Source: Chlamydiae bacterium CG10_big_fil_rev_8_21_14_0_10_42_34 (GTDB lineage Bacteria > Chlamydiota > Chlamydiia > Chlamydiales > SM23-39). Taken from it: a DNA stretch of 64,000 bases. Under the pieces are notes generated by a model, which did no database searches, was not told the DNA's origin, and worked only from the letters and a program-made list of their open reading frames with translations. Shown here in pieces: positions 49,105-54,552 of this stretch (the first letter of the stretch is position 1; every line of letters begins with the position of its first letter). Location: the NCBI GenBank assembly GCA_002773795.1, contig PFAD01000008.1, forward strand, positions 540,070-604,069, in the 5' to 3' direction. A program made the translations under genes and the position numbers.

Positions 49105-49266
49105 TGTCATCGAAATTTCGGTTCATATTTAAACCCCTGAAAGTAAAAAATCGACCTCTTGTTCAAGAATGGCTTGTACAGCCCCCATGTTGCTGAATGG
49201 ATTCATAGAGTGGGGCCTCAAAATACCCTAGAGGCCCTTGAACTAAACATTTTGATCACCTACTGA
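49101..49266 (+). pseudogene. Short remnant resembling the N-terminus of a GNAT acetyltransferase
   Basis: MMSSKFRFIFKPLKVKNRPLVQEWLVQPP then, after a frameshift in a C5 run, HVAEWIH…. The pattern FRPL…W…QPHV…W recalls AAC(6')/IucB-type GNAT N-termini. Only about 50 codons remain. Confidence 0.3.
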
Positions 49267-51047
49267 GCTGGGGATAACTCGAGAACAGTAAGATAGTAGC
49301 GGACTGACCCACTCTCCATTAGCTTTTGTGAAACAACCGAACCTTGAAGTCCTGAGCTTTCCAATAAACTTTGGTTAGCTTGTTCAATTAAAGGTGTATC
49401 TTCCGAAAGAATTAACACACGATCCCCAGAAAAAAGTTCTCTTTTATATGGAGAACTTGGATTTAGATGCAAAGGGAAATCCTCATTGACTAAGCGATAT
49501 CCCCAAAGATAACACGATGAGATGCTTCTGAATACATATTGCAAACGCTCCCTAGAATCAAACCAAAACAAAAGGTCTGCCTCTGGAGCTGCCTGCCGTA
49601 TATGGCTAACGCTATCAATTACTGTAAGAAATGCATTTTTTTGTTCGATAGGCGTAAGAAAGTATGCAGAAGAGTGCTTAAATATACCACTGCTAGAAGA
49701 CATAATAAGCGCAGTTATCGCTAAACACTTCATCGCAGGCTGCCTGTCTGAAAATATCTCTAACAACCTTCCTTTATAAAAAACTAATAACAGTGCAAAG
49801 CAGATAGTTACTACCGCACTTATCACTTTAAGGCTTAACCAATAGTGGATTGGATTCTTTGGCCCTAAATACGTGTACACAACTAAAATCCAGCAAATTA
49901 GCGTAGCATACACGATGATAAAAGAACGCCTTTTCAGATTTTTTGCTACTGGCCCCAGTAACGCTCCAATCCATAAAAAAATGCCAGGAATTAAGTAAGA
50001 TGCGTAGTAATACATTTCCAGTATTGGCAGCTTGAAAACAAATTGCCAGACAGCATGTATACTTATACTGAGCAAACAATAAGCAGATAAGGAAGCAATA
50101 TTATTGCTAGCGCGACCTCGCAAATAAATAATGATCGCCAAAAAAGATCCGGCAAATGCCATAGCAGGTAGCTTCCAGTGCTTTGCATAGTATGTCCACA
50201 CATGAAGCGGATGCCACCAGGGATTTGTCGGGGAAAAGAGAATATTCTGGCAAATGCTTATACTATCCATGAAGAAAAAAAAGGTACCATTTATAAAAAA
50301 TGCAACTATACACCAAAACAAAACTGCAATTGCAAAGCCAAAGAGTAGAAAACAAACACTCTTTAAATAATGGGTTTTCATTTTCGAAGCTGTTATAAAA
50401 CTAAAATATAAGAGCACTAAAGGGACATAATTTAGCAAGAACATCTGCGTAGCTACAGCTGTTGCAAATGCAAAACCTGCACATGCAAGATTTAAATAGG
50501 TCATAACCCTATTCTTATAACCGCAAGACGTTGGAGTTAAAAAACACAAAACCACAAGAAGAAGAACAGATGCGAGACCATCATAATGGGTTGACCCAAC
50601 AGAGTACAGAAAGTAAAAGTATGAACCTAAAAGCGTGGATGTGAGTAAGGCTGCTTTTCTTCCAAAAAGCCGCTTAATAGTGACATATAAAGAAAAAACA
50701 CCTGTATAGTATACAAGGAGAGGCAAAAGATACATGGCAACATAGCTAGGGAACAATTCATAGACAAGTATACCGACAGAAATCCAGGGTATACGGGCTC
50801 CATAGTAAGTATGAGGAAATGCTTGCCAATGACACTTCCAATTTAGCATGTATCCTAGATAAATCCATGGATCAATGGTTCCCTGTAAAACGGAAGAAAT
50901 AATCCAACCTGGGTACAGAAGTAGCAAAACAAAAGGCATTGCAAGCAACACCCAATAGCAACGGTCTATCGATTTCAGTAGTGACCATGCGTACGCTAAA
51001 ACTCTAAAGATGGTCATGAAGGGATTGAAAAGTACCTGTGTAGTCAT
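49260..51047 (-). CDS. Polytopic membrane protein with C-terminal soluble domain (GT-C/ArnT-like glycosyltransferase candidate)
   Basis: 595 aa. The first 430 aa or so hold more than 10 hydrophobic helices and are followed by a hydrophilic domain of about 160 aa. The architecture and operon context (GT2 and aminotransferase nearby) fit the GT-C fold. No motif was verified. Confidence 0.5.
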   Translation of the reverse strand: MTTQVLFNPFMTIFRVLAYAWSLLKSIDRCYWVLLAMPFVLLLLYPGWIISSVLQGTIDPWIYLGYMLNWKCHWQAFPHTYYGARIPWISVGILVYELFPSYVAMYLLPLLVYYTGVFSLYVTIKRLFGRKAALLTSTLLGSYFYFLYSVGSTHYDGLASVLLLVVLCFLTPTSCGYKNRVMTYLNLACAGFAFATAVATQMFLLNYVPLVLLYFSFITASKMKTHYLKSVCFLLFGFAIAVLFWCIVAFFINGTFFFFMDSISICQNILFSPTNPWWHPLHVWTYYAKHWKLPAMAFAGSFLAIIIYLRGRASNNIASLSAYCLLSISIHAVWQFVFKLPILEMYYYASYLIPGIFLWIGALLGPVAKNLKRRSFIIVYATLICWILVVYTYLGPKNPIHYWLSLKVISAVVTICFALLLVFYKGRLLEIFSDRQPAMKCLAITALIMSSSSGIFKHSSAYFLTPIEQKNAFLTVIDSVSHIRQAAPEADLLFWFDSRERLQYVFRSISSCYLWGYRLVNEDFPLHLNPSSPYKRELFSGDRVLILSEDTPLIEQANQSLLESSGLQGSVVSQKLMESGSVRYYLTVLELSPAQ

Positions 51048-51056
51048 AAAATTTTG

Positions 51057-52410: not shown

Positions 52411-52472
52411 ATTTTGTTGGAGTATAAGTTGTGGTCCATGTTAATTTTTCTCTTTCAATGAATGCAAGCAAT

Positions 52473-53405
52473 ATGATTTCAGTCGTCAGCCCGGTTTATC
52501 AGTCAGCCGAATGTATTGACAAATTAGTTTCCTTGCTAATTGAAACCCTCTCGTCCATTTCTCCTCACTTTGAGATCATTCTTGTTAACGACGGGAGTTC
52601 TGATGCTAGTTGGGATATAATCCTTTGTCAGAGCGATCAGGACACACGCGTTAAGGGGATCAACTTGAGTCGCAATTTTGGACAACATGCTGCAATTACA
52701 GCTGGGTTAAAGGCAGCCTCAGGAGAGTGGGTGGTAGTAATGGATTGTGATCTGCAAGATGACCCAAGAGAAATCGGCCGTCTATATGAAAAAGCCAAAG
52801 AAGGCTATGATGCTGTAGTGGCCCAAAGGGTATTTCGGTCAGACCCATGGCATAAGAAAATGCTGTCAACTCTGTTTTATAAAACGCTTTCCTTTCTTAC
52901 CGGCATCAAACAAGATGCTGCGGCAGCTAACTTCGGCATTTACCACAAGAAAATGATTCAATCGATCCTAAAAATGAATGAAAGCGCCCGTTTCTTCCCT
53001 GCAATGGTAAATTGGGTTGGTTTTAAAATATCACGGCTTCCTGTTCACCATCAACCTCGATTTCAAGGAGAAAGCACATACACGTTGTACCGACGGTTTA
53101 AGCTCGCATTAGATATTATGCTTGCCTATAGCGACAAACCCCTTAGGTTGATCATGTATTTGGGATTTTTTATCTCATTTATGTCTTTTTTATTCGCCGT
53201 TTGGATATTTGTACACGCGCTTTTAGGAACGATCACCTTACTGGGTTATTCAAGTTTGATCGTAACAGTGAGCTTTCTCTCAGGCATCATCATCTCCGTC
53301 TTGGGGATCATCGGCCTTTATGTTGGAAAGATTTTTGAAGGGATCAAAAAACGGCCTATGTATTTGATAAAGGATACTACATATGACTTTCATTCCATTC
53401 AATAA
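52473..53405 (+). CDS. Polyprenyl-phosphate glycosyltransferase, GT2 (ArnC/GtrB-like)
   Basis: MISVVSPVYQS…EIILVNDGSSD…NLSRNFGQHAAITAGL…MDCDLQDDP plus two C-terminal TM helices is the classic ArnC/GtrB/DPM1-like layout. The ORF-track start is 52431. Confidence 0.85.
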   Translation: MISVVSPVYQSAECIDKLVSLLIETLSSISPHFEIILVNDGSSDASWDIILCQSDQDTRVKGINLSRNFGQHAAITAGLKAASGEWVVVMDCDLQDDPREIGRLYEKAKEGYDAVVAQRVFRSDPWHKKMLSTLFYKTLSFLTGIKQDAAAANFGIYHKKMIQSILKMNESARFFPAMVNWVGFKISRLPVHHQPRFQGESTYTLYRRFKLALDIMLAYSDKPLRLIMYLGFFISFMSFLFAVWIFVHALLGTITLLGYSSLIVTVSFLSGIIISVLGIIGLYVGKIFEGIKKRPMYLIKDTTYDFHSIQ

Positions 53406-54552
53406 ACCTTACGTCCCTATCCAAAGTTACGAGTATATAAAAGAAGCCATTGGCCGAGGTAAAATTTCAGGCAATGGCTTCTTTACCCAAAGGTGTCACA
53501 ATTTTTTTTGTGACCAATTAAAGTTTAAAAAAGTCTTGCTTACATCATCTTGTACAGATGCTTTAGAAATGTCTGCTATTTTGACCCAGATTTCTCCAGG
53601 GGACGAAGTGATTATGCCGTCCTTTACATTTCCATCCACAGCAAACGCCTTCATATTAAGGGGGGCTCACATCGTATTTGCGGACAGTGAATCCACCAAT
53701 CCTAATATGGATGCTTCTCAAGTAGCTTCTCTGATTACAGAAAAAACAAAAGCGATCGTCCCGGTACATTATGCGGGAGTATCCTGTGATATGGATACGA
53801 TCATGCAAATTGCTCGCGAGAATCAATTGTATGTTGTTGAAGATGCAGCTCAAGCAATCGACAGTTATTACAAAGGTATTCCCCTAGGTACCATTGGCCA
53901 TTTTGGTGCTTTTTCCTTTCATGAAACAAAAAATTTGTCCTCAGGAGAAGGAGGGATGCTAGCAATTAATCATGAACGTTATTTTGATCGATCCGAGCAT
54001 ATATGGGAGAAAGGGACAAACCGATCTTCGTTTTTTCGGAATGAAGTAGACAAGTATGGATGGGTCGATATAGGCTCTTCATTTCTTCCTTCAGATATTA
54101 TCGCAGCCCTTCTATATGCTCAACTTGAAGAAATGGATACTATTCAAAGCAAAAGACTTCAGATTTGGGATCGGTACTATTCACAACTAAAACATCTCGA
54201 GCAAAACGGATACTTAAGACTGCCGTCAATTCCTGATTACGCATCAAATAATGCCCATCTTTTTTACTTGATTTGTTCATGCGAAAAGCAGCGCCAAGAT
54301 CTCATCCTCTATTTGAAAAACAGAGGTATTTCTGCAATCTTTCACTATTTACCCCTACATAAATCTCCATATTATAAAGATAAGTATCGCGGTCCAAAAT
54401 TACCTCACAGTGAACTCTATGCAGATCGATTATTACGCTTACCACTTTACTATAATTTAGAGCTCGATCAAGTAGATCAAATAGTGGAGACAATTTGTGA
54501 GTTTTTCTCTACAAAAAAAACCATATACAGCGCTTCAATCAACGAACGCTAG
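53383..54552 (+). CDS. DegT/DnrJ/EryC1/StrS-family aminotransferase (WecE-like dTDP-4-keto-6-deoxy-sugar transaminase)
   Basis: 389 aa with N-terminal IPFNKPY and a FSFHETKNLSSGEGG PLP-lysine region, as in WecE. It overlaps the GT2 gene by 23 nt. Confidence 0.9.
   Translation: MTFIPFNKPYVPIQSYEYIKEAIGRGKISGNGFFTQRCHNFFCDQLKFKKVLLTSSCTDALEMSAILTQISPGDEVIMPSFTFPSTANAFILRGAHIVFADSESTNPNMDASQVASLITEKTKAIVPVHYAGVSCDMDTIMQIARENQLYVVEDAAQAIDSYYKGIPLGTIGHFGAFSFHETKNLSSGEGGMLAINHERYFDRSEHIWEKGTNRSSFFRNEVDKYGWVDIGSSFLPSDIIAALLYAQLEEMDTIQSKRLQIWDRYYSQLKHLEQNGYLRLPSIPDYASNNAHLFYLICSCEKQRQDLILYLKNRGISAIFHYLPLHKSPYYKDKYRGPKLPHSELYADRLLRLPLYYNLELDQVDQIVETICEFFSTKKTIYSASINER

What the first reader, a model, noticed from the sequence alone, without database searches (positions are those of the whole stretch)
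49260..54552. Divergent Arn-like module: aminotransferase, polyprenyl-P GT2 and GT-C-like membrane protein with GNAT and methyltransferase, suggesting periplasmic transfer of a modified amino-sugar
On the plus strand, an ArnC/GtrB-type GT2 with C-terminal TM helices overlaps a WecE-type sugar aminotransferase. On the minus strand, a GNAT, a SAM methyltransferase and a 595-aa polytopic protein with a C-terminal soluble domain overlap or nearly abut. Aminotransferase, lipid-carrier GT2 and GT-C form the logic of the ArnB/ArnC/ArnT and GtrA/B/C systems, which decorate lipid A, O-antigen or proteins from the periplasmic side.
The GNAT and methyltransferase could N-acetylate and methylate the 4-amino-6-deoxy sugar. 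No small GtrA/ArnE-F-like flippase was spotted. Such envelope decoration would be unusual in Chlamydiae, whose classical LPS is minimal.
Basis: partly seen in the sequence, partly recalled or inferred. Interest (0 to 1): 0.6.

Follow-up and report, generated by a model that had tools for sequence, protein, structure and literature searches.

The report
Lipid-carrier sugar-decoration cassette in a chlamydia
An environmental chlamydia carries a probably horizontally acquired five-gene cassette that most likely makes an amino-sugar, loads it on a membrane lipid carrier and attaches it to a cell-envelope target outside the cytoplasm, using a membrane transferase from a large family that nobody has characterised.

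Summary
The aminotransferase is a WecE equivalog, which makes a dTDP-4-amino-4,6-dideoxyhexose. The GT2 is a full-length GtrB/ArnC-type polyprenyl-phosphate glycosyltransferase with two C-terminal TM helices.

The 595-aa protein matches no family model itself. It belongs to a family of about 2,100 clusters, and some members pass Pfam PMT_2. Its AlphaFold model (pLDDT 89) matches only GT-C enzymes, with ArnT first.

The membrane protein, GT2, methyltransferase and WecE recur together in unrelated metagenomic lineages (34-68% GC).

Corrections:
- It is not an Arn operon. ArnA, ArnD, ArnE/F and an ArnB-type enzyme are absent.
- The GNAT is PA3944-like and is not a conserved cassette member.
- The methyltransferase is the most conserved partner, even in loci with no aminotransferase in the flank held.
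- No flippase and no RmlA/RmlB lie in the window.

The host is chlamydial (RpoB 92-94% to three records labelled as chlamydiae). No relative has a GT-C above 35% identity. The cassette lies beside a tRNA-Met-bounded island and pseudogenes, so it is probably acquired. The acceptor and the exact sugar are unknown.

The parts
49260..51047 (-). 595-aa polytopic membrane protein: GT-C-fold glycosyltransferase of an uncharacterised family remotely related to PMT_2/ArnT, with a C-terminal alpha/beta domain from about residue 487 to 595
   Evidence: The protein itself has no Pfam, NCBIfam or PDB sequence hit. A profile search finds 2,114 clusters, 704 of them below 1e-30, matched over the full length. 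Of 73 members, 33 hit PF13231 PMT_2, and four long members score 29-38 bits against a cut-off of 26.1. The AlphaFold2 model has pLDDT 89.2 and pTM 0.91. In Foldseek the top 20 matches are all GT-C enzymes, with ArnT 5ezm first (E 7.5e-6, TM 0.44/0.48), then ALG12, STT3, ALG9, AglB, Pmt4, EmbB and PglB. D59, R85, G92, G157, G191, G237 and W495 are invariant and D156 is nearly invariant.
51057..51857 (-). 266-aa soluble class I SAM-dependent methyltransferase, the most conserved partner of the GT-C
   Evidence: It hits Methyltransf_23 at 2.8e-19 and has no TM helix. PDB relatives are only generic methyltransferases. An orthologue with 46% identity lies next to the GT-C in L001. Relatives of 26-38% identity lie 220-360 nt from the GT-C in L025, L028, L044, L063 and L064. 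Of 91 neighbouring ORFs in 14 related loci, 22 are Methyltransf_23.
51844..52410 (-). 188-aa GNAT acetyltransferase of the PA3944 type, first gene of the minus-strand operon; its membership in the pathway is uncertain
   Evidence: It hits Acetyltransf_3 at 4e-35 and P. aeruginosa PA3944 (6edd) at 1.2e-52. It overlaps the methyltransferase gene by 14 nt. No relative of it is detected in any related locus, and the GNAT of L001 is not an orthologue (BLASTP E 0.015).
52411..52457 (.). Very short divergent intergenic region between the two operons (20-62 nt, depending on the GT2 start)
   Evidence: Read directly from the sequence. The consensus scan found no convincing sigma-70 pair here.
52431..53405 (+). 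324-aa GtrB/ArnC-type polyprenyl-phosphate glycosyltransferase (GT2 catalytic domain plus two C-terminal TM helices)
   Evidence: It hits Glycos_transf_2 at 4.8e-31. NCBIfam PgfS gives 1.2e-65 and ArnC 1.6e-55, both over the full length but below the equivalog cut-offs. In the PDB it matches Synechocystis GtrB 5ekp at 9.2e-63 (7-316 against 19-329), ArnC at 2.8e-49 and DPMS at 7e-14. It is 31% identical to E. coli ArnC over 308 aa. TM helices lie at 247-265 and 276-294. A DXD motif, 'DCDLQDDP', is read in the sequence.
53383..54552 (+). 389-aa WecE-type PLP aminotransferase (dTDP-4-keto-6-deoxy-D-glucose to dTDP-4-amino-4,6-dideoxyhexose)
   Evidence: NF008687 scores 546.9 bits (cut-off 375) and TIGR02379 scores 506.3 bits (cut-off 434.85). 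The ArnB model scores only 221 bits against a cut-off of 631. It matches E. coli WecE 4piw at 3.1e-118. The motif 'SFHETKN' is present in the translation; from my own knowledge of WecE-type enzymes it holds the PLP-binding lysine. Relatives of 48-63% identity lie beside the GT-C family in L001, L028, L033, L047, L054, L060, L061 and L073.

Best explanation
This is a horizontally acquired 'lipid-carrier' glycosylation cassette that works in five steps.

1. In the cytoplasm the WecE homologue aminates dTDP-4-keto-6-deoxy-D-glucose to a dTDP-4-amino-4,6-dideoxyhexose, Fuc4N-type by the best model. This is inferred from equivalog-level homology.
2. The sugar is tailored by the SAM methyltransferase, and possibly N-acetylated by the GNAT. 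This is inferred and weak; which atom is modified is unknown.
3. The GtrB/ArnC-type GT2 transfers the sugar from the nucleotide to undecaprenyl phosphate, giving a monophosphate-linked donor. This is inferred from full-length homology and the TM architecture.
4. The lipid-linked sugar is flipped by a protein not encoded in the cassette.
5. On the periplasmic side the 595-aa GT-C enzyme, with the invariant D59 in its first external loop as the likely catalytic acid, transfers the sugar onto an envelope acceptor.

The acceptor is unknown. Family contexts include an ABC-2 exporter, FkbM-type and class I methyltransferases, and 4,6-dehydratase- and RmlD-like genes. I therefore lean towards a glycan (LPS core or a polysaccharide) rather than lipid A phosphate or protein.

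Shown here: the gene content, the folds and families, and the co-conservation. Inferred: every chemical step.
For: - WecE passes two curated NCBIfam cut-offs and matches 4piw at 3e-118.
- The GT2 matches GtrB and ArnC structures over their whole length, including both TM helices.
- The membrane protein has a confident model whose top 20 PDB matches are all GT-C enzymes, ArnT first. Some relatives pass Pfam PMT_2. An Asp in the first loop (D59), R85 and D156 are invariant or nearly so across 73 members.
- Positive residues lie before TM1 and none in the loop after it, which places that loop outside the cytoplasm (read from the sequence).
- L001 (34% GC) carries GT-C, MT, GT2, aminotransferase and a GNAT colinearly, with 31, 46, 56 and 63% identity for the first four.
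- Among 48 non-redundant related loci with at least 3 kb of flank, 17 have a GT2_324-like gene, 10 an MT266-like gene and 8 a WecE-like gene.
- All three partners sit with the GT-C in L001, L047, L061 and L073, which span 34-68% GC.
- Of 11 close full-length relatives, 8 have the GT2 within 8 kb.
- Neighbourhood Pfam content includes 5 epimerase/4,6-dehydratase and 3 RmlD-like ORFs.
- The closest relative, P0006, sits directly after ABC2_membrane and ABC_tran genes.
- The pairing of a polyprenyl-P GT with a GT-C enzyme is the established hallmark of extracytoplasmic glycosylation (PMC11127046; PMC12041528).
Against: - No flippase of the GtrA or ArnE/F type is present. No ORF of 220 aa or less with three or more TM segments exists anywhere in the 64-kb window.
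- No RmlA or RmlB lies in the window to supply dTDP-4-keto-6-deoxyglucose. The rest of the genome could not be read.
- The 595-aa protein itself hits no family model.
- Sequence-level links to ArnT are weak. hhalign gives 29% probability over only 134 columns, and Foldseek TM-scores are moderate at 0.44-0.50.
- The GT2 is below the equivalog cut-offs, so its sugar specificity is open.
- The GNAT's only characterised relative acetylates polymyxin's Dab3, not sugars (PMC8072286).
- Adjacent pseudogenes show that this region is decaying.
Confidence: 0.65

Rival explanations
1. True Arn-like function: the amino sugar stays, or becomes, a free amine. The GT-C puts it on lipid A or Kdo, lowering negative charge and protecting against cationic peptides. 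The PA3944-like GNAT adds a second defence by acetylating polymyxin-type peptides.
For: ArnT is the single best structural match. The module pairs a 4-aminotransferase with an ArnC-like GT2 that is 31% identical to E. coli ArnC. The co-transcribed GNAT is closest to PA3944 (1.2e-52), which acetylates polymyxin B and colistin in vitro (PMC8072286).
Against: No deacylase (ArnD-like), no formyltransferase and no ArnE/F are present. The ArnB and ArnC models score far below their cut-offs, while WecE passes. The ArnT match has a TM-score of only 0.44-0.48, and ALG, STT3, PMT and Emb enzymes score similarly. Family neighbourhoods are rich in methyltransferases, dehydratases and an ABC-2 exporter, which is typical of polysaccharide loci and not of lipid A modification loci. 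The GNAT is not conserved with the cassette.
Confidence: 0.12
2. Protein O-glycosylation: the GT-C acts like PMT/PgfM1 and transfers the lipid-linked sugar to Ser/Thr of periplasmic or outer-membrane proteins.
For: The only Pfam family that relatives reach is PMT_2, the protein O-mannosyltransferase-type model. The best NCBIfam match of the GT2 is PgfS (1.2e-65), the donor synthase of the streptococcal Pgf protein-glycosylation pathway (PMC12041528). Pmt4 is among the structural matches.
Against: PMT_2 also covers ArnT-like and many uncharacterised enzymes, so it does not indicate the acceptor. The PgfS hit is well below its cut-off (222 against 500 bits). PgfM1 is a YfhO-type GT-C, and no YfhO hit was seen. 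No Ser/Thr-rich target gene is evident beside the cassette.
Confidence: 0.15
3. Decaying relic: the cassette was acquired but is not functional in this chlamydia because precursor supply and a flippase are missing.
For: No RmlA/RmlB and no flippase lie in the window. A frameshifted, internally deleted SDR gene and a GNAT fragment lie immediately downstream of the GT-C gene. The cassette is confined to one lineage.
Against: All five ORFs are intact, with overlapping or abutting ends. All family-invariant GT-C residues, the DXD of the GT2 and the 'SFHETKN' lysine motif of WecE are retained. Three separate metagenome contigs carry the same MT product, next to called genes of the same lengths, although the GT-C is cut or different on the two short contigs. 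The missing genes could lie in the roughly 565 kb of the contig that I could not read.
Confidence: 0.08

Closest known systems
Gtr-type three-component periplasmic glycosylation (GtrA flippase, GtrB Und-P-glucose synthase, serotype-specific GT-C) of Shigella, Salmonella and their phages, and its Gram-positive counterparts (CsbB/GtcA/YfhO, GacI/GacL)
   Same: The GT2 is most similar to a solved GtrB (5ekp, 9e-63, full length with both TM helices). It is paired with, and co-conserved beside, a GT-C-fold membrane enzyme. The logic is the same: a monophosphate lipid-linked single sugar used outside the cytoplasm (PMC11127046).
   Different: There is no GtrA-like gene. The cassette carries its own sugar-making and sugar-tailoring genes (WecE, methyltransferase). 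The GT-C belongs to a different, uncharacterised family. The predicted sugar is a dTDP-derived 4-amino-4,6-dideoxyhexose, not UDP-glucose or UDP-GlcNAc.
Arn (ArnBCADTEF) lipid A 4-amino-4-deoxy-L-arabinose pathway
   Same: It combines a 4-aminotransferase of the DegT family, an ArnC-like GT2 (31% identity) and a GT-C whose best structural match is ArnT.
   Different: The aminotransferase is WecE-type: 547 bits on the WecE model, against 221 bits on the ArnB model with a cut-off of 631. No ArnA, ArnD, ArnE or ArnF is present (E. coli operon shown for comparison). The link to ArnT is at fold level only (hhalign probability 29%). A methyltransferase is a conserved extra component.
Citrobacter youngae O1/O2 pentofuranose three-component system (polyprenyl-phosphoribose synthase, MATE flippase, GT136 GT-C)
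   Same: [quoted passage not shown] A MatE gene lies 7 kb away in this window (40703-42073).
   Different: The donor synthase is a different enzyme type (PRPP-dependent, not GT2). The MatE here lies inside a separate tRNA-Met-bounded island. Nothing links it to the cassette in related loci.
Streptococcus mutans Pgf protein O-glycosylation (PgfS, PgfE, PgfM1, PgfM2)
   Same: PgfS is the best NCBIfam match of the GT2 (1.2e-65, full length). In both, a GT-A donor synthase works with GT-C transferases in one operon (PMC12041528).
   Different: PgfM1 and PgfM2 are YfhO-type GT-Cs and the sugar is GalNAc made by an epimerase. Here the GT-C is PMT_2-related and the sugar gene is an aminotransferase.
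Enterobacterial common antigen pathway (WecE, WecD, WecF)
   Same: The aminotransferase is an equivalog-level WecE (4piw at 3e-118). N-acetylation by a GNAT (WecD) follows in ECA (my own knowledge of the pathway).
   Different: In ECA the dTDP-Fuc4NAc is used directly by a cytoplasmic GT on an Und-PP-linked trisaccharide. No WecF, WecG, WzxE or WzyE is present here, and the GNAT is PA3944-type rather than WecD-type.

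Membership tests
Arn lipid A aminoarabinose pathway | ArnB-type UDP-Ara4O aminotransferase | tested here: not met
   The ArnB model NF008658 scores 221 bits against a cut-off of 631. The WecE models pass their cut-offs.
Arn lipid A aminoarabinose pathway | ArnC Und-P Ara4FN transferase | tested here: not met
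   NF007986 scores 188 bits against a cut-off of 529. The architecture is the same and identity to E. coli ArnC is 31%, so it is a family relative and not an equivalog.
Arn lipid A aminoarabinose pathway | ArnA (formyltransferase/decarboxylase), ArnD (deformylase) and ArnE/F (flippase) present | tested here: not met
   None is found among the window ORFs of at least 150 aa that were scanned. No small polytopic ORF exists.
Arn lipid A aminoarabinose pathway | ArnT (GT83) transferase | tested here: inconclusive
   ArnT is the best fold match (E 7.5e-6, TM 0.44-0.48). There is no sequence hit, and hhalign probability is 29% over 134 columns.
Three-component (Gtr-type) extracytoplasmic glycosylation | GT2 polyprenyl-phosphate glycosyltransferase with C-terminal TM helices | tested here: met
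   It matches GtrB 5ekp at 9.2e-63 over residues 7-316, with TM helices at 247-265 and 276-294.
Three-component (Gtr-type) extracytoplasmic glycosylation | GT-C-fold transferase encoded with the GT2 | tested here: met
   The fold search returns GT-C enzymes in all of its top 20 places. A GT2_324-like gene lies within the flank held (8-10 kb) in 17 of 48 related loci and within 8 kb in 8 of 11 close ones.
Three-component (Gtr-type) extracytoplasmic glycosylation | Dedicated small flippase (GtrA or SMR type) in the locus | tested here: not met
   No ORF of 220 aa or less with three or more TM segments exists in the window, and L001 has none either. A MatE gene 7 kb away is only a candidate.
GT-C glycosyltransferase superfamily (PMT_2/ArnT clan) | Structural similarity to solved GT-C enzymes | tested here: met
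   The model has pLDDT 89.2 and pTM 0.91. The top 20 Foldseek hits are all GT-C.
GT-C glycosyltransferase superfamily (PMT_2/ArnT clan) | Conserved acidic residue in the first extracytoplasmic loop after TM1 | tested here: met
   D59 is invariant in 73 sequences. It lies at the start of the short helices (59-68, 70-76) that follow TM1 at 30-44. Its equivalence to the ArnT or PglB catalytic Asp was not checked by superposition.
GT-C glycosyltransferase superfamily (PMT_2/ArnT clan) | Match to the Pfam PMT_2 model (PF13231) | tested here: inconclusive
   The window protein has no hit. Of 73 relatives, 33 hit at E of 0.01 or less, and four long members score 29-38 bits against a cut-off of 26.1.
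GT-C glycosyltransferase superfamily (PMT_2/ArnT clan) | Uses a polyprenyl-phosphate-linked sugar donor | not testable with these tools
   This needs biochemistry. Only the conserved neighbourhood with the GtrB-type GT2 supports it.
WecE (dTDP-4-keto-6-deoxy-D-glucose 4-aminotransferase) | Passes the curated equivalog/subfamily models and keeps the PLP lysine | tested here: met
   NF008687 scores 546.9 against 375 and TIGR02379 scores 506.3 against 434.85. It matches 4piw at 3.1e-118. The 'SFHETKN' motif is present.
WecE (dTDP-4-keto-6-deoxy-D-glucose 4-aminotransferase) | Substrate supply by RmlA and RmlB in the same genome | tested here: inconclusive
   Neither is in the 64-kb window. The rest of the roughly 629-kb contig could not be read.
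Enterobacterial common antigen cluster | WecD, WecF, WecG, WzxE and WzyE accompany WecE | tested here: not met
   None is found in the window. The GNAT is PA3944-type.

The most novel reading that the evidence does not exclude
The cassette of WecE, a class I methyltransferase, a GtrB-type GT2 and this GT-C family is a widespread, undescribed system. It would put a methylated 4-amino-4,6-dideoxyhexose on envelope glycans from an undecaprenyl-monophosphate donor, a donor sugar I know no precedent for. In this organism it would be the first GT-C-dependent periplasmic glycosylation in Chlamydiae, acquired by horizontal transfer, and would give an otherwise minimal chlamydial surface a new antigenic decoration.
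Probability: 0.3. Interest if true: 0.6.

Novelty: new variant of a known kind. Interest (0 to 1): 0.45.

Why it matters
The mechanism class, a lipid-linked single sugar used by a GT-C enzyme outside the cytoplasm, is well known. That limits the surprise.

Three things are new:
- The GT-C family is large (about 2,100 clusters at 50% identity). It has no characterised member, and it has no family model that recognises this protein.
- It has a conserved methyltransferase partner, and in a subset a WecE partner. This implies a lipid-linked donor sugar not described so far.
- It occurs in a chlamydia, a group whose surface glycans are thought to be minimal, as a lineage-specific, probably acquired cassette.

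If it is active, it would change how surface variation in environmental chlamydiae is viewed. It would also give glycoengineers a new donor and transferase pair. All of this is testable by expression in laboratory E. coli, which already makes the predicted dTDP-sugar precursor.

Tried and rejected
- AlphaFold2 with only three sequences gave an unusable model (pLDDT 41). It was replaced by the 73-sequence run.
- Sequence searches of the 595-aa protein and of its 73-member profile against PDB chains found nothing meaningful.
- The word-indexed homologue search found only two relatives, even with a profile. The exhaustive profile search was needed.
- hhalign of the family against E. coli ArnT gave only 29% probability over 134 columns. 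I do not claim sequence-level ArnT homology.
- The metagenome scan with the 73-sequence alignment failed for lack of a conserved stretch and was repeated with the three-sequence alignment.
- An attempt to read beyond the window through the last gene returned only a short contig, so RmlA/RmlB elsewhere in the genome remain unchecked.
- The GNAT as a conserved sugar N-acetyltransferase was rejected. It has no orthologue in related loci, and the L001 GNAT is unrelated.
- The MatE gene as the cassette's flippase was considered but not adopted. It lies in a separate repeat-bounded island and has no conserved linkage.
- Rfam and tRNA scans of the flank found no RNA gene beside the cassette.
- The promoter and terminator scan was uninformative, with counts at or below shuffled expectation.
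- Literature searches found no paper on GT-C enzymes in Chlamydiae, and none linking WecE to a GtrB/GT-C pair.

Full report
**Observation.**
- On the minus strand lie a 188-aa GNAT (51844-52410), a 266-aa methyltransferase (51057-51857, 14-nt overlap) and a 595-aa polytopic protein (49260-51047, 9-nt gap).
- On the plus strand, diverging from a gap of only 20-62 nt, lie a 324-aa GT2 (52431-53405) and a 389-aa aminotransferase (53383-54552, 23-nt overlap).
- Pfam and NCBIfam confirm four of the five assignments. The 595-aa protein matches nothing in either library.

**The soluble and donor-side enzymes.**
- The aminotransferase passes two curated NCBIfam cut-offs for WecE (546.9 bits against 375; 506.3 against 434.85). 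It fails the ArnB model (221 against 631). Its best solved relative is E. coli WecE (4piw, 3e-118). It therefore most likely makes a dTDP-4-amino-4,6-dideoxyhexose.
- The GT2 aligns end to end with the solved Synechocystis GtrB (5ekp, 9e-63) and with ArnC (3e-49). Polymerising GT2s match only its N-terminal half, at E above 1e-8.
- The GT2 has two C-terminal TM helices and is 31% identical to E. coli ArnC. It sits below the PgfS and ArnC equivalog cut-offs, so the family is clear but the sugar is not.
- The GNAT is a close relative of P. aeruginosa PA3944 (1.2e-52). That enzyme's only known activity is low-efficiency acetylation of polymyxin's Dab3 and a mimic of it (PMC8072286).
- The methyltransferase is a generic class I enzyme with no informative solved relative.

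**The 595-aa protein.**
- The word-indexed search found just two relatives, at 31% and 23% identity.
- An exhaustive profile search found 2,114 clusters, 704 of them below 1e-30, matching over the full length including the C-terminal domain.
- In a 73-sequence alignment D59, R85, G92, G157, G191, G237 and W495 are invariant, and D156 nearly so.
- Of those 73 members, 33 hit Pfam PMT_2. Four longer members pass its curated cut-off.
- With this alignment AlphaFold2 gives a confident model (pLDDT 89.2, pTM 0.91). The three-sequence attempt had failed.
- Foldseek against the PDB returns GT-C enzymes in all of its top 20 places: ArnT first (E 7.5e-6, TM 0.44/0.48), then ALG12, STT3, ALG9, AglB, Pmt4, EmbB and PglB.
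- Sequence-level links to ArnT are weak.
- D59 sits at the start of two short helices that follow TM1. Basic residues precede TM1 and none follow it. This places D59 in the first external loop, where GT-C enzymes carry their catalytic acid. That last point rests on established knowledge and was not checked by superposition.
- I conclude that this is a GT-C glycosyltransferase of an uncharacterised family on the edge of the PMT_2/ArnT clan.

**Co-conservation.**
- The contig of the 31% relative (L001, 34% GC) carries GT-C, MT, GT2, aminotransferase and a GNAT colinearly on one strand. The first four are 31, 46, 56 and 63% identical to the window's proteins.
- GTDB and metagenome scans added 80 loci, mostly from Acidobacteria and Actinomycetes MAGs and from soil and peat metagenomes.
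- Among 48 non-redundant loci with at least 3 kb of flank, 17 have a GT2_324-like gene, 10 an MT266-like gene and 8 a WecE-like gene of 48-63% identity.
- All three partners accompany the GT-C in four loci spanning 34-68% GC. Of 11 close full-length relatives, 8 have the GT2 within 8 kb.
- A GtrB-type GT2 is a gene present in one or a few copies per genome, so this is far above chance. That judgement is my inference; no formal background rate was computed.
- A Pfam census of 91 neighbouring ORFs in 14 close loci found 22 Methyltransf_23, 7 GT2, 5 epimerase/4,6-dehydratase, 3 RmlD-like, 2 hexapeptide acyltransferases and 2 GNATs.
- The closest relative of all (P0006, 35% identity) lies directly after an ABC-2 permease and ATPase pair. 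Another relative is followed by three methyltransferases.
- The window's GNAT has no detectable relative in any of these loci, and L001's GNAT is unrelated to it.

**What is missing.**
- No ORF of 220 aa or less with three or more TM segments exists anywhere in the window, so there is no GtrA- or ArnE/F-type flippase.
- No RmlA, RmlB, formyltransferase or deacylase was found among the window ORFs of at least 150 aa that were scanned.
- The remaining roughly 565 kb of the contig could not be read.

**Organism and origin.**
- The named records among the RpoB relatives at 92-94% identity are labelled Parachlamydiales bacterium, Chlamydiales bacterium and Chlamydiae bacterium RIFCSPHIGHO2_12_FULL_44_59; three others in that range are labelled Verrucomicrobia. 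The window also holds a V-type ATPase operon.
- More than 100 RpoB clusters lie at 85-95% identity, yet the GT-C has no relative above 35%. The cassette is therefore lineage-specific.
- About 0.9 kb beyond the 3' end of the GT-C gene lies a 47-nt degenerate copy of the 3' half of tRNA-Met (48349-48395). The intact gene is at 39961-40033. Together they bracket an 8.4-kb insert.
- Between that repeat and the cassette are a frameshifted, internally deleted SDR gene and a GNAT fragment.
- GC is 0.40 in both the cassette and the island, against 0.436 upstream.
- This is an integration hotspot, and the cassette was probably acquired horizontally.

**Mechanism proposed.**
1. WecE makes the dTDP-amino-sugar.
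2. The methyltransferase, and perhaps the GNAT, tailor it.
3. The GtrB/ArnC-type GT2 loads it on undecaprenyl phosphate.
4. An unidentified flippase moves it across the membrane.
5. The GT-C transfers it to an envelope acceptor.

Only the gene content, the folds and the linkage are shown here; each chemical step is inferred. The methyltransferase accompanies the GT-C in loci where no aminotransferase lies in the flank held, so I think O-methylation or another role is as likely as N-methylation. Family contexts favour a glycan acceptor over lipid A phosphate or protein, but weakly.

**Comparison with known systems.**
- The cassette works like the Gtr, Arn and Pgf three-component systems (PMC11127046; PMC12041528). 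It is not a member of Arn or of the ECA pathway, because defining components were tested and are absent.
- It differs from all of them in three ways: the GT-C family, the conserved methyltransferase, and the predicted dTDP-derived 4-amino-4,6-dideoxyhexose donor.
- I found no paper describing such a cassette or any GT-C system in Chlamydiae.

**Verdict.** It is a new variant of a known kind and of moderate interest.

Noticed in passing
window 39961-40033 and 48349-48395: An intact tRNA-Met gene and a 47-nt degenerate direct copy of its 3' half lie 8,362 nt apart. They bracket an island (GC 0.40) with no integrase. Its genes are MatE, a 227-aa unknown, GT2-TPR, an alpha/beta hydrolase, a thymidylate-kinase-like protein, an EpsD-like GT2, a Nudix protein and a 506-aa weakly Gfo/Idh/MocA-like protein.
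   Followed up: partly
window 48604-49104: A short-chain dehydrogenase pseudogene. The N-terminal 'TGASSGIG' part ends in a T7 run at about 48846. The 'NAG' motif continues in another frame. The 'PGPVDT' C-terminal part follows after an internal deletion of roughly 250 nt.
   Followed up: partly
window 49100-49262: A short remnant resembling the N-terminus of a GNAT ('...PLVQEWLVQPPHVAEWIHR...' after a 1-nt frameshift), truncated at the 3' end of the GT-C gene. Read by eye only.
   Followed up: no
window 36324-38487: A GT10 (fucosyltransferase C-terminal domain, 3e-18) gene lies next to a DUF1207 protein and an MFS transporter. With the three GT2 genes further on, the 36-54 kb stretch is unusually rich in glycosyltransferases for a chlamydia.
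   Followed up: no
window 54878-63309: Two very large ORFs (1,843 and 959 aa) directly downstream of WecE have no Pfam hit. The C-terminal 284 aa of the first has no PDB sequence hit. It has Cys and His motifs that by eye recall an OTU-type protease, and a GxSxG-like 'AHSGG' near the N-terminus.
   Followed up: partly
window 49260-51047: One database copy, from NCBI, is 559 aa rather than 595 aa, which fits a start at M37. That start would cut into the helix at 30-44 that I read as TM1. The model is confident (pLDDT above 90) for residues 11-40, which favours the longer ORF.
   Followed up: partly
L088 1005-4235; L089 643-5036: The closest relative of the GT-C (35% identity) is the gene directly after an ABC-2 permease and ATPase pair (Wzm/Wzt-like). 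Another relative is followed by one class I and two FkbM-type methyltransferases. This hints that the family acts in ABC-transporter-dependent, methylated polysaccharide pathways.
   Followed up: partly
family members P0013, P0016, P0020, P0028, P0030, P0037, P0042, P0049, P0057, P0069: A sub-group of the GT-C family is 720-800 aa long. It has a C-terminal extension of about 150-200 aa that hits no Pfam model.
   Followed up: no
window 1854-6921: A V/A-type ATPase operon (subunits D, B and A, plus DUF2764) is consistent with the chlamydial affiliation.
   Followed up: no
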